This document shows positions 5,008 through 22,302 of a stretch of 64,000 bases of DNA, in pieces. The notes under the pieces were generated by a model. The model did no database searches, had not been told where the DNA came from, and saw only the letters and a list, made by a program, of their open reading frames with translations. The stretch lies in NCBI RefSeq assembly GCF_058153355.1, contig NZ_CM177019.1. One strand, written 5' to 3'. Numbering within the stretch: position 1 is the stretch's first letter; every line of letters starts with the position of its first letter. The translations under genes were made by a program, and so were the position numbers.

Positions 5008-6666
<1,659 letters not shown>

Positions 6667-6680
6667 TGATGTGGCGTATG

Positions 6681-7132
6681 CTGATAAGACGCGTCAGCGT
6701 CGCATCAGTCAACCGGCTTGGGCGTTAGATGTCGGATGCGGCGTGACCGCCTTATCCGACCTATGGGGTGGAGCACTTCACAGCGGTGTAGGCCTGATAA
6801 GACGCGCCAGCGTCGCATCAGTCAACTGGCTTGGGCGTTAGATGTCGGATGCGGCGTGACCGCCTTATCCGACCTACGGGGTGGAGCACTTCACAGCGGT
6901 GTAGGCCTGATAAGACGCGCCAGCGTCGCATCAGGCAACCGGCTCGGGCATTAGATGTCGGATGCGGCGTGACCGCCTTATCCGACCTACGGGGTGGAGC
7001 ACTTCACAGCGGTGTAGGCCTGATAAGACGCGCCAGCGTCGCATCAGGCAACCGGCTTGGGCGTTAGATGTCGGATGCGGCGTGACCGCCTTATCCGACC
7101 TACGGGGTGCCACACTTCACGGCAGTTTAGCG
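6681..7132. repeat. Tandem array of four ~113-bp REP/BIME units in the mqo-eco intergenic region
   Basis: The motif ctgataagacgcg recurs at 6681, 6794, 6907 and 7020 (period 113 bp); each unit holds two inverted REP-like palindromes (ctgataagacgcgccagcgtcgcatcag and gatgcggcgtgaccgccttatccgacctac). Confidence 0.8.
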
Positions 7133-7615
7133 GACTACCGCGTTGTCAATTTTCTCTTCCGCCTTCCAGATGCGGTATTTCACATCTACATTGTCTGGCG
7201 TATACACCACGATCGGCAGCTTGCTGTTGTAACGCAGCATTCCAGCATCGCCCAGATACGCGGTGACAAATTTCTTCTCTTTCTTGCCATCCGGGCAGGC
7301 CATCATCGTGGAAACCGGCGAGCTAACTTTATCAAAGACGTAATAATCATAGCCCCAGCCTTCCAGCGTTTTGCTTTCCAGCTTCCCGCCGAGACGATGC
7401 AAATTGCAATCGACTTCCAGCGTCTGACCGATTAACAGTTCTACTTTCAGGGTAGATTCATCTTCTTGCGGGGTTAACTGAATCACCTGGCGCTTCATGC
7501 CTTTTTCAGCTTGTGGATAAGGCGCGATTTTTTCCAGTGGCTGGACGCTCTCTGCCGCCCAGGCGGAAGTGGTGGCGAAAGCGGCAAACAATACTGCAGG
7601 TAGAATGGTCTTCAT
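7127..7615 (-). CDS. eco: Ecotin, periplasmic serine protease inhibitor
   Basis: 162-aa product from the internal ATG ([20 protein letters not shown] signal peptide); the longer 169-aa ORF start is less likely. Confidence 0.9.
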
Positions 7616-7874
7616 TTTTTTGCTTTCCTTCTTCATTTATAGGTTTTCACCGATGATGTCGCTGAAGGTTAACATATTCATCAGATTTATTAATTTGCTT
7701 TATGAATAACTTAAAGAACATTCAGACAATTTTACCTGCTCTTTTAGTGTTAAATTCTGACGAGAGAACAAACCAGTAGAAATATCTCTGGTGAATTAAT
7801 CGCTATATAAATATGTTTATAACCATTTGAAATGTGAGCAAAAGCCCGTTTTTGCCACGCTTCCCGCCACTCTT

Positions 7875-7909
7875 TTGATCCTGCTACAGGTTTTACCTCG
7901 ATCGGGGTA
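7875..7909 (+). promoter_or_regulatory. Candidate napF promoter control region: weak FNR-like half-site pair (7875-7888) and NarP/NarL 7-2-7 heptamer pair (7894-7909)
   Basis: TACCTCG-AT-CGGGGTA fits the NarL/NarP 7-2-7 consensus TACYYMT-NN-AKRRGTA; TTGATcctgCTACA lies 20 bp upstream with only a partial right half; about 115-150 bp upstream of the napF start. Confidence 0.4.
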
Positions 7910-8022
7910 TGCATCTTTGACACATCCTTTAATATCTTAGCGGCTATAAAAATGGCTTATTAATTATGCGGTTTATTTGGTCGCTCTCAATTTTCAGAGC
8001 GCGTTAATGATGGAAGGTCAAT

Positions 8023-8517
8023 GTGAAGATTGATGCATCCCGTCGGGGCATACTCACTGGTCGCTGGCGCAAAGCCAGTAACGGTATCCGTCCGCCCTGG
8101 TCCGGTGATGAATCTCATTTTCTGACCCATTGCACCCGCTGTGACGCCTGTATTAATGCTTGTGAAAACAACATTCTGCAACGCGGCGCGGGGGGCTATC
8201 CGAGCGTTAATTTCAAAAATAACGAGTGCAGCTTCTGTTATGCCTGCGCGCAAGCTTGCCCCGAATCGCTATTTTCTCCGCGCCACACCAGGGCCTGGGA
8301 TTTGCAGTTCACCATTGGGGACGCGTGCCTGGCGTATCAGTCAGTTGAATGCCGTCGCTGTCAGGATAGCTGTGAGCCAATGGCAATTATCTTTCGCCCG
8401 ACGCTCTCCGGGATCTACCAGCCGCAACTTAATAGCCAACTTTGCAACGGATGTGGAGCATGTGCAGCCAGCTGTCCGGTATCAGCCATAACTGCGGAGT
8501 ATCTCCATGCACACTAA
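8023..8517 (+). CDS. napF: Ferredoxin-type protein NapF (Fe-S, periplasmic nitrate reductase accessory)
   Basis: 164-aa ORF with several CxxCxxCxxxCP ferredoxin motifs; first gene of the nap cluster. Confidence 0.9.
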   Translation: MKIDASRRGILTGRWRKASNGIRPPWSGDESHFLTHCTRCDACINACENNILQRGAGGYPSVNFKNNECSFCYACAQACPESLFSPRHTRAWDLQFTIGDACLAYQSVECRRCQDSCEPMAIIFRPTLSGIYQPQLNSQLCNGCGACAASCPVSAITAEYLHAH

Positions 8518-20162: not shown

Positions 20163-20222
20163 GAACAAGCCCGATGGTGATGCCATCGGGCCAGACTGAT
20201 GGCAAAGTGCGCTTTGTTTATG

Positions 20223-20256
20223 CCAGATGCGGCGTAAACGCCTTATTCAGCCTACA
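20223..20256. repeat. REP palindrome flanking the IS insertion (ccmH side)
   Basis: gccagatgcggcgtaaacgccttattcagcctac, the REP family seen elsewhere in the window. Confidence 0.55.
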
Positions 20257-20350
20257 AAATCGTGCGAACTCAATACATTGCTCGATCCGCGTAGATACTG
20301 TTATGGCCTGCAAGTTTTTTTCTACCCCGGTTTCCCAGATTGCAGGCATG

Positions 20351-21577
<1,227 letters not shown>

Positions 21578-21622
21578 TGATAAGCGTAGCGCATCAGGCA
21601 GTTTTGCGTTTGTCATCAATAT

Positions 21623-21657
21623 CAGCCCGAGGGTAAATCCATCGGGCTATTTTTTTA
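21623..21657. terminator. Bidirectional intrinsic terminator between the IS element and the narP 3' end
   Basis: Hairpin agcccga-gggtaaatccatc-gggct flanked by an A-run on one side and atttttttatt on the other; lies just downstream of the narP stop. Confidence 0.5.
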
Positions 21658-22302
21658 TTGTGCCCCACGTTGTTGCAGGAACAGAATGGTGGCCGCCACG
21701 CGTGAGCGGACATTGAGTTTACGCAGCAGATTGCGAATGTGTACTTTTACTGTCTGCTCGGAAATATTCAACACCGAGGCAATCTGTTTATTTGACAGTC
21801 CCTGTGCCAGCTCGTGCAGAACATCCAGCTCGCGCTCCGTCAGCACGCTGAAGGGATCTTCTTCCGCGCCAAACATTTCACGTTCACGTAAGTACTGATT
21901 GACGCGTTCGCTAAAGACTTTGCTGCCTTTCGCTCCGGCACGAATCGCTTCCAACAACACTTCCGGATCGCTGTCTTTCAACAGATAACCGTCTGCGCCT
22001 GCGTCTATCAGCGCAAACACATCGCTGGAGGCATCTGATACGGTCAGGATAATAATTTGCGCGGTAACGCCATCCCTGCGCAAGGCATTGAGGGTATCCA
22101 GGCCACTCATACCTTTCATATTGAGATCCAGCAAGATCACGTCGATATCCAGTCTATTCGCCAGATCGATAGCACTCGCGCCGTCGCCCGCTTCGGCGAC
22201 CACTTCAAAGCCAGGATCAAGCTCCAGTAACTGACGAACACCGCGTCGCATAAGTGGATGATCATCCACAATCATCACCTGAAAAGGCGTTGCTTCAGGC
22301 AT
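21655..22302 (-). CDS. narP: Nitrate/nitrite response regulator NarP (NarL/FixJ family)
   Basis: 215-aa product from internal ATG (MPEATPFQVMIVDDHPLMRRG...); receiver domain plus C-terminal LuxR-type HTH. Confidence 0.9.
   Translation of the reverse strand: MPEATPFQVMIVDDHPLMRRGVRQLLELDPGFEVVAEAGDGASAIDLANRLDIDVILLDLNMKGMSGLDTLNALRRDGVTAQIIILTVSDASSDVFALIDAGADGYLLKDSDPEVLLEAIRAGAKGSKVFSERVNQYLREREMFGAEEDPFSVLTERELDVLHELAQGLSNKQIASVLNISEQTVKVHIRNLLRKLNVRSRVAATILFLQQRGAQ

What the first reader, a model, noticed from the sequence alone, without database searches (positions are those of the whole stretch)
7875..7909. napF promoter: NarP/NarL 7-2-7 site with a weak FNR-like site 20 bp upstream
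TACCTCG-AT-CGGGGTA is a good match to the NarL/NarP heptamer-pair consensus and sits 20 bp downstream of a TTGAT-containing FNR-like element, the arrangement expected for anaerobic, nitrate-responsive nap expression. narP itself lies 13 kb away, on the far side of the IS110 insertion.
Basis: partly seen in the sequence, partly recalled or inferred. Interest (0 to 1): 0.2.

Follow-up and report, generated by a model that had tools for sequence, protein, structure and literature searches.

The report
Known E. coli napF promoter sites
This is the well-studied Escherichia coli napF (periplasmic nitrate reductase) promoter, with its NarP/NarL site and weak FNR site where published mapping puts them, so it is ordinary apart from a common single-base natural variant in the NarP/NarL site.

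Summary
TTGATcctgCTACA (7875-7888) and TACCTCG-AT-CGGGGTA (7894-7909) lie 20 bp apart centre to centre, 141.5 and 121.5 bp upstream of the napF start codon (8023). The window is E. coli chromosome (mqo-eco-yojO-napFDAGHBC-ccm-IS621-narP).

Motif counts alone are not above chance. The evidence comes from elsewhere:
- The composite is unique in the window.
- The block from TTGAT through the 7-2-7 site to an invariant AATATCTTA is conserved in Escherichia, Citrobacter and Leclercia while the flanks diverge.
- The overlapping antisense ORF yojO is broken by stops outside E. coli, so coding does not explain the conservation.
- Published heptamer positions (-49/-40) put +1 at 7946. That places the FNR site at -64.5 and the 7-2-7 site at -44.5, the known unconventional napF P1 layout.
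- A published FNR ChIP peak maps 9-15 bp from the FNR-like site, with a weak motif score.
- A published -85..+19 reporter covering both sites depends on NarP.

The one difference from K-12 is C>T at 7898. It breaks K-12's perfect palindrome but stays within the heptamer consensus, and 444 of 5,420 complete E. coli genomes carry it. The side claims hold: NarP gene 13.7 kb away, beyond an IS621-family insertion.

Verdict: already known, low interest.

The parts
7875..7888 (.). Weak FNR site, TTGAT-cctg-CTACA, centre 7881.5, which is -64.5 relative to the inferred P1 start.
   Evidence: Sequence. The TTGAT half is invariant in 8 sequences from 4 genera, while the right half varies (CTACA, CAACA, CTACT). 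The Myers 2013 FNR ChIP peak centres map to 7873 and 7867, with PatSer ln p -5.37.
7894..7909 (.). NarP/NarL 7-2-7 heptamer pair, TACCTCG-AT-CGGGGTA, centre 7901.5, which is -44.5. It carries C>T at 7898 relative to K-12.
   Evidence: Sequence. 13 of 16 columns are invariant across 4 genera. Heptamers at -49/-40 in Katsir 2015. napF is listed among the four reported 7-2-7 sites (PMC2718512). Allele counts.
7930..7938 (+). Overlapping -10 hexamers, TAATAT (7930-7935) and TATCTT (7933-7938). No usable -35 is present.
   Evidence: AATATCTTA is invariant in all 8 sequences. The hexamers sit at -13..-8 of starts at 7943 and 7946. No canonical -35/-10 pair is found on the + strand. Assigning them to promoters P2 and P1 rests on my memory of Stewart et al. 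2003.
7946..7946 (+). Inferred P1 transcription start, corresponding to K-12 NC_000913.3 position 2303574. The 5' UTR to the napF GTG is 77 nt.
   Evidence: Derived from the heptamer centres at -49/-40 and the coordinate map from the alignment. It was not measured here.
7801..7824 (.). ModE-like palindrome, CGCTATATA-N6-TTTATAACC, centre 7812.5, which is -133.5.
   Evidence: Sequence. It is conserved in Escherichia, is a better palindrome in Citrobacter and is absent in Leclercia. ModE activation of napF is stated in PMC8139620. The -133.5 position is recalled from McNicholas and Gunsalus 2002, which was not readable here.
8023..8517 (+). napF, the first gene of napFDAGHBC and the regulated target.
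   Evidence: NCBIfam TIGR00402 NapF equivalog, 248 bits against a cutoff of 102. RefSeq annotation of orthologous loci.
21655..22302 (-). narP, the response regulator that binds the 7-2-7 site.
   Evidence: NCBIfam NF007708 NarP equivalog, 457 bits against a cutoff of 343, matching residues 11-225 of the ORF. RefSeq annotation of matching genomes.

Best explanation
This is the control region of the E. coli napFDAGHBC (periplasmic nitrate reductase) operon. Under anaerobiosis, FNR binds the weak TTGAT-N4-CTACA site centred at -64.5. At low nitrate or with nitrite, phospho-NarP binds as a dimer to the 7-2-7 heptamer pair centred at -44.5, two helical turns downstream and abutting the missing -35 region. 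Together they recruit RNA polymerase to a promoter that has a -10 element (TATCTT, overlapping TAATAT) but no usable -35. At high nitrate, phospho-NarL competes for the same 7-2-7 site and limits activation, so nap expression peaks at low nitrate. ModE, bound further upstream at -133.5, adds molybdate control. The window carries a natural C>T variant at position 5 of the promoter-distal heptamer; it stays within the TACYYMT consensus and is expected to leave the mechanism intact.

Shown here: the sequence, spacing, orthology, conservation, allele frequency and mapping of the published coordinates.
Taken from the literature: binding, activation and competition.
Inferred: that the T allele behaves like the K-12 allele.
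For: Orthology: 5,421 of 5,426 complete E. coli genomes match the eco-napF intergenic region, annotated eco/yojO/napF.

One-base difference from K-12 across the core promoter.

Footprint across Escherichia, Citrobacter and Leclercia: TTGAT is invariant, 13 of 16 columns of the 7-2-7 site are invariant, and AATATCTTA is invariant. By contrast, 13 of 108 far-upstream columns are invariant. In Leclercia the DNA upstream of TTGAT is unrelated and a tRNA-Arg gene ends 257 bp before napF, yet the module is retained.

Citrobacter carries a symmetric CG-AT-CG to CA-AT-TG change that preserves the dyad.

The yojO reading frame is broken in every non-E. coli species, so the conservation is not coding.

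The composite motif is unique in the window, with 0 of 100 shuffles matching.

Literature read here:
- 7-2-7 heptamers at -49/-40 (PMC4549865).
- napF is one of four reported 7-2-7 sites, and NarP binds only such sites (PMC2718512).
- FNR plus NarP-P activate, and NarL-P blocks NarP-P; a -85..+19 fusion depends on NarP (PMC9262595).
- FNR ChIP peak at napF/yojO with a weak motif (PMC3688515), mapped to window 7867-7873 using an empirically derived +1978 offset.
- ModE and IscR control of nap (PMC8139620).
Against: Neither motif is statistically remarkable on count alone. The right FNR half-site matches the consensus at only 2 of 5 positions and is not conserved toward the consensus in other genera. 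The primary mapping papers could not be read here: Darwin 1998, Stewart 2003 and McNicholas 2002. The -64.5 and -133.5 values and the P1/P2 assignment therefore rest on my memory plus internal consistency with the -49/-40 values that I did read. No binding or expression data exist for the T allele.
Confidence: 0.95

Rival explanations
1. The two motifs are chance matches with no regulatory role.
For: The 7-2-7 pattern gives 4 hits against 2.35 expected, and 17 of 100 shuffles reach 4. The FNR pattern with 3 mismatches is very common, with 316 hits in the window.
Against: The motifs sit at exactly the published positions of the K-12 promoter. They are strongly conserved across genera while the flanks diverge. 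An FNR ChIP peak maps 9-15 bp away. A NarP-dependent reporter fragment covers them. The composite is unique in the window.
Confidence: 0.01
2. The sequence conservation reflects coding constraint on the antisense small ORF yojO (7750-7914, minus strand), which overlaps both motifs, and not transcription-factor binding.
For: RefSeq annotates yojO across this stretch in many E. coli genomes. The ORF is intact in the window and in K-12.
Against: The frame is interrupted by stop codons after 20 codons in E. albertii, 16 in all four Citrobacter and 15 in Leclercia, and the start codon is lost in C. werkmanii. Variable columns show little third-position bias: 21 at position 3 against 14 at position 1 and 14 at position 2. 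Conservation is concentrated in the motif blocks.
Confidence: 0.02
3. FNR acts through a different site, and the TTGAT element at 7875 is a bystander. A candidate is TTGGTcgctCTCAA at 7977-7990, which matches the FNR consensus better (2 mismatches).
For: The 7977-7990 match has 2 mismatches against 3 for the 7875 site. The right half of the 7875 site is poor and variable.
Against: The 7977-7990 site lies in the 5' UTR (+32..+45), a position that would repress rather than activate. It is not conserved in E. albertii, Citrobacter or Leclercia. It lies more than 100 bp from the ChIP peak centre, against 9-15 bp for the 7875 site. It lies outside the NarP-dependent -85..+19 fusion.
Confidence: 0.03
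4. The architecture is the same, but the C>T change at 7898 measurably alters NarP and/or NarL affinity. Nap expression, or its nitrate set-point, would then differ in strains with this allele.
For: The change breaks the perfect 16-bp palindrome of K-12. The allele is lineage-associated, present in 444 of 5,420 genomes including O157:H7, O145 and O169:H41.
Against: Position 5 of the heptamer is Y in the TACYYMT consensus (my knowledge of the NarL literature). The same T occurs naturally in E. albertii and Leclercia. No functional data exist either way.
Confidence: 0.12

Closest known systems
E. coli K-12 napF (aeg-46.5) operon control region, promoter P1, with Fnr at -64.5 and NarP/NarL 7-2-7 at -44.5
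   Same: Same locus and gene order. The FNR-like site, spacing, -10 region, 5' UTR and ModE-like palindrome half-sites are identical (the K-12 spacer differs by one base). The 73-bp core differs by a single base.
   Different: The left heptamer reads TACCTCG where K-12 reads TACCCCG (7898 C>T), so the site is no longer a perfect palindrome. The allele is found in about 8% of complete E. coli genomes, against 91% for the K-12 allele.
Other E. coli 7-2-7 sites (nirB, nrfA, fdnG, yeaR) and the engineered high-affinity site TACCCCTAAAGGGGTA
   Same: Inverted TACYYMT heptamers with a 2-bp spacer, bound by NarL and NarP dimers (PMC4549865; PMC2718512). The window site matches the engineered site at 11 of 14 heptamer positions.
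   Different: As I recall, at nirB and nrfA the 7-2-7 site lies upstream of a class II FNR site at -41.5. At napF the order is reversed: the response-regulator site is promoter-proximal and FNR sits upstream.
Typical FNR-activated class II promoters (FNR at -41.5)
   Same: A TTGAT-containing FNR target that is occupied in vivo (PMC3688515).
   Different: Myers 2013 found 19 of 23 directly activated promoters with FNR at -41.5 +/- 4 and only one near -60.5. The napF site sits at -64.5, has a weak match (ln p -5.37, when the genome-wide prediction threshold is -10.75) and needs a co-activator.

Membership tests
NarL/NarP 7-2-7 binding site | Two TACYYMT heptamers in inverted orientation separated by exactly 2 bp | tested here: met
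   TACCTCG-AT-CGGGGTA matches 6 of 7 positions in each heptamer, with the mismatch at position 7 of both.
NarL/NarP 7-2-7 binding site | Located in the control region of a nitrate/nitrite-regulated operon, at a position reported for that operon | tested here: met
   It lies 121.5 bp upstream of napF. The heptamer centres correspond to the published -49/-40.
NarL/NarP 7-2-7 binding site | Conserved in orthologous promoters | tested here: met
   13 of 16 columns are invariant in 8 sequences from 4 genera. The variable positions are 5 and 7 of the left heptamer and 1 of the right.
NarL/NarP 7-2-7 binding site | Bound by phospho-NarP and phospho-NarL | not testable with these tools
   This is reported for the K-12 allele in the literature cited by PMC9262595 and PMC2718512. 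No data exist for the T allele.
FNR binding site | Dyad TTGAT-N4-ATCAA | tested here: inconclusive
   The left half matches 5/5 and the right half 2/5, giving 3 mismatches in all. That is a frequency expected by chance (316 such matches per 64 kb). Myers PatSer ln p is -5.37, below their prediction threshold of -10.75.
FNR binding site | In vivo FNR occupancy | tested here: met
   A published ChIP peak at napF/yojO (called by MOSAiCS ChIP-seq and CMARRT ChIP-chip) maps to window 7867-7873, 9-15 bp from the site centre. The data are from K-12, whose site sequence is identical.
FNR binding site | Position compatible with activation | tested here: met
   The site centre is at -64.5 of the inferred start, on the same helical face as the NarP site 20 bp away. 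This is class I-like and unusual for FNR.
E. coli napF P1 promoter (orthologue) | Synteny eco-(yojO)-napFDAGHBC-ccm-narP and near-identity to the K-12 control region | tested here: met
E. coli napF P1 promoter (orthologue) | Transcription start at the mapped position | not testable with these tools
   +1 at 7946 is inferred from published site coordinates. No transcript data were available here.

The most novel reading that the evidence does not exclude
The C>T polymorphism at position 5 of the promoter-distal heptamer (7898) is shared by about 8% of E. coli, including O157:H7, O145 and O169:H41 strains. It could shift the balance between NarP activation and NarL antagonism at the single shared site. 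That would retune the nitrate concentration at which periplasmic nitrate reductase is expressed in those lineages, a trait relevant to growth in the nitrate-rich inflamed gut.
Probability: 0.1. Interest if true: 0.3.

Novelty: already known. Interest (0 to 1): 0.08.

Why it matters
It matters little beyond correct annotation. The napF promoter is a textbook case of co-activation by FNR and a nitrate-responsive response regulator in an unusual layout, with FNR upstream at -64.5 and NarP promoter-proximal at -44.5. Confirming it here shows that the first-stage reader can recognise real regulatory sites from sequence alone. The only new detail is a common natural single-base variant inside the NarP/NarL site, which would be simple to test for an effect on nitrate-dependent nap expression.

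Tried and rejected
1. I tried to read the primary mapping papers and none is held: Darwin 1998 PMC107417, Stewart 2003 PMC193976, Stewart and Bledsoe 2005 PMC1251606, McNicholas and Gunsalus 2002 PMC135098, Stewart 2009 PMC2632075.

2. Full-text searches for napF with 64.5, 44.5 or 133.5 returned only unrelated chemistry (NaPF6) and clinical papers.

3. I looked for the primer sequences of the -85..+19 PnapF fusion to anchor the start site independently. No supplementary files are held for that paper.

4. The simple sigma-70 scan found no + strand promoter. This is consistent with an activator-dependent promoter but gives no positive evidence.

5. I tested whether an IscR type-2 motif explains the invariant ACACATCCT block. 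The pattern is too degenerate (123 hits against 131 expected) and no hit covers the block. A literature search for an IscR site at napF found nothing usable.

6. The genome scan with NapF returned only 7 enterobacterial orthologues. Salmonella, Klebsiella, Yersinia and the Pasteurellaceae were not recovered, because peptide patterns from a single query reach only close relatives.

7. Rejected explanations: chance matches, yojO coding constraint, and the alternative FNR-like site at 7977-7990. See the rival explanations.

Full report
WHAT IS THERE

The window around the finding reads ...ctcttTTGATcctgCTACAggtttTACCTCGatCGGGGTAtgcatc.... The 7-2-7 element TACCTCG-AT-CGGGGTA occupies 7894-7909, with its centre at 7901.5. 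The FNR-like element TTGAT-N4-CTACA occupies 7875-7888, with its centre at 7881.5.

The surrounding genes are as follows:
- mqo (5020-6666, +)
- an array of REP-like repeats
- eco (7127-7636, -)
- napF (8023-8517, +; NCBIfam NapF equivalog), followed by napDAGHBC and ccmA-H
- an IS110-family transposase (20400-21380, -)
- narP (21655-22302, -; NCBIfam NarP equivalog, 457 bits against a cutoff of 343)

The 386-bp eco-napF intergenic region matches 5,421 of 5,426 complete E. coli genomes. RefSeq annotates eco, the small ORF yojO and napF there. The window is therefore E. coli chromosome, and the finding lies in the napF control region.

IS IT MORE THAN CHANCE?

On motif counts alone it is not. 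The 7-2-7 consensus with up to two mismatches occurs 4 times in the window against 2.35 expected, and 17 of 100 shuffles do as well. The FNR consensus with three mismatches occurs 316 times.

What makes the pair meaningful is where it sits and how it is conserved. About 0.014 such 7-2-7 matches are expected in this intergenic region. The composite TTGAT-N14-TACYY-N6-RRGTA is unique in the window and absent from 100 shuffles, although I wrote that pattern after seeing the site.

CONSERVATION

A genome scan with NapF recovered orthologous loci from E. albertii, four Citrobacter genomes and Leclercia adecarboxylata. I aligned their upstream regions with the window and K-12. One conserved block runs from TTGAT to the -10 region:
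- TTGAT is invariant.
- 13 of 16 columns of the 7-2-7 site are invariant.
- AATATCTTA is invariant.
- By contrast, only 13 of 108 far-upstream columns are invariant.

In Leclercia the DNA upstream of TTGAT is unrelated. A tRNA-Arg gene ends 257 bp before napF, yet the FNR/7-2-7/-10 module is retained.

The variable positions in the 7-2-7 site are position 5 of the left heptamer (C or T) and the two innermost positions. Two Citrobacter genomes carry a symmetric CG-AT-CG to CA-AT-TG change that keeps the dyad. The right FNR half-site varies (CTACA, CAACA, CTACT) and never approaches ATCAA, so 'weak' is apt.

COULD THE CONSERVATION BE CODING?

RefSeq annotates yojO on the opposite strand (window 7750-7914), and it overlaps both motifs. 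In that frame there are stop codons after 20 codons in E. albertii, 16 in every Citrobacter and 15 in Leclercia. Substitutions show little third-position bias. Coding constraint is therefore rejected.

RELATION TO THE MAPPED PROMOTER

Aligned to K-12 MG1655 (NC_000913.3; window x = 2303497 + (8023 - x)), the core promoter is identical except for one base. K-12 has the perfect palindrome TACCCCGATCGGGGTA, and the window has T at 7898.

Katsir et al. 2015 state that the napF 7-2-7 heptamers lie at -49 and -40. With heptamer centres at 7897 and 7906, both values give +1 = 7946, which is K-12 position 2303574. Three consequences follow:
- The FNR-like site is centred at -64.5.
- The ModE-like palindrome CGCTATATA-N6-TTTATAACC (7801-7824) is centred at -133.5.
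- The overlapping hexamers TAATAT and TATCTT sit at -13..-8 of starts at 7943 and 7946.

These values equal what I recall from Darwin et al. 1998, Stewart et al. 2003 (Fnr -64.5, NarP -44.5, overlapping promoters P2 and P1 about 3 nt apart) and McNicholas and Gunsalus 2002 (ModE -133.5). None of those papers could be opened here, so these values are marked as memory. They are corroborated by their mutual consistency with the one set of positions I could read. No canonical -35/-10 pair exists on the + strand, as expected for an activator-dependent promoter.

INDEPENDENT FUNCTIONAL EVIDENCE FROM PAPERS READ HERE

Myers et al. 2013 report an FNR ChIP peak at napF/yojO at 2301669 (Table S5) and 2301675 (Table 2 and Table S9). 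It has a weak motif score (PatSer ln p -5.37, when their genome-wide prediction threshold is -10.75), and they class napF as needing NarP co-activation.

I derived the coordinate offset between their genome version and NC_000913.3 empirically. Their predicted site at 111 starts at 111 in NC_000913.3. Their site at 2309648 starts at 2311626. The offset is therefore +1978. The peak centres then map to window 7873 and 7867, which is 8.5 and 14.5 bp from the centre of the TTGAT element. They lie more than 100 bp from a nominally better FNR match (TTGGTcgctCTCAA, 7977-7990). That match lies in the 5' UTR and is not conserved.

Brosse et al. 2022 show that a PnapF fusion from -85 to +19 (window about 7861-7965, so both motifs but not the ModE site) is strongly NarP-dependent and peaks near 5 mM nitrate. 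They summarise the mechanism as FNR plus NarP-P activating and NarL-P blocking NarP-P. Keilwagen et al. 2009 list napF among the four reported 7-2-7 sites and note that NarP binds only such sites. Myers et al. also show how unusual the layout is: 19 of 23 FNR-activated promoters have FNR at -41.5 +/- 4.

THE ONE DIFFERENCE

The exact 73-bp core with the window's T allele is present in 444 of 5,420 complete E. coli genomes, including O157:H7, O145 and O169:H41 strains. The K-12 allele is present in 4,932 of 5,421. The core promoter is thus almost bi-allelic within the species.

The T stays within the Y of TACYYMT and also occurs in E. albertii and Leclercia, so I expect it to be tolerated. Whether it changes NarP or NarL affinity quantitatively is untested. 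This is the only reading with any novelty, and I rate it at about 10%.

SIDE CLAIMS

narP lies 13.7 kb from the site at its nearest end. The element between ccmH and narP is annotated in matching genomes as an IS110-like IS621-family element, and only a handful of genomes share this insertion site. Both side claims are correct.

VERDICT

The feature is the already well-characterised napF P1 control region. It is ordinary and of low interest, with a minor natural variant noted.

Noticed in passing
window 7898: C>T difference from K-12 inside the left NarP/NarL heptamer. K-12's perfect palindrome TACCCCGATCGGGGTA becomes TACCTCGATCGGGGTA. The window allele is an exact 73-bp match in 444 of 5,420 complete E. 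coli genomes (O157:H7, O145, O169:H41 and others), and the K-12 allele in 4,932 of 5,421. The same T occurs in E. albertii and Leclercia.
   Followed up: yes
window 7920-7928: ACACATCCT, at -26..-18 of the inferred P1 start in the promoter spacer, is invariant across Escherichia, Citrobacter and Leclercia. No factor is assigned to it. An IscR type-2 pattern search was uninformative.
   Followed up: partly
window 7750-7914 (minus strand): The RefSeq-annotated small ORF yojO (54 aa) overlaps the FNR and NarP sites on the opposite strand. It is intact only in E. coli and is broken by stops in E. albertii, Citrobacter and Leclercia, so it may be a spurious or very young gene.
   Followed up: yes
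window 7990..7963 (minus strand): A sigma-70-like promoter match, TTGAGA-16-CATAAT (10 of 12), points leftward. It could drive antisense (yojO) transcription through the napF promoter. One such match in this region is no more than chance (1.7 expected).
   Followed up: no
window 7968-7990: A weak terminator-like hairpin followed by a T-run lies in the napF 5' UTR. It overlaps a 2-mismatch FNR-consensus match (TTGGTcgctCTCAA, +32..+45). Neither is conserved in Citrobacter or Leclercia.
   Followed up: partly
window 7801-7824: ModE-like palindrome CGCTATATA-N6-TTTATAACC, centred at -133.5. It is a better palindrome in Citrobacter (CGTTATATA-N6-TATATAACT) and is absent in Leclercia, where a tRNA-Arg(tct) gene ends 257 bp upstream of napF.
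   Followed up: partly
window ~20192-21640: An IS110-family, IS621-like insertion (transposase 20400-21380, minus strand; NCBIfam 'IS110 family RNA-guided transposase') lies between ccmH and narP. Only five listed genomes share this junction, whereas copies elsewhere are common (median 17 matching places per genome).
   Followed up: partly
window ~6680-7110: Four tandem copies of a repeat of about 113 bp (REP/BIME-like) lie between mqo and eco. They show up as repeated overlapping ORFs and as pattern hits spaced 113 bp apart (6746, 6859, 6972, 7085).
   Followed up: no
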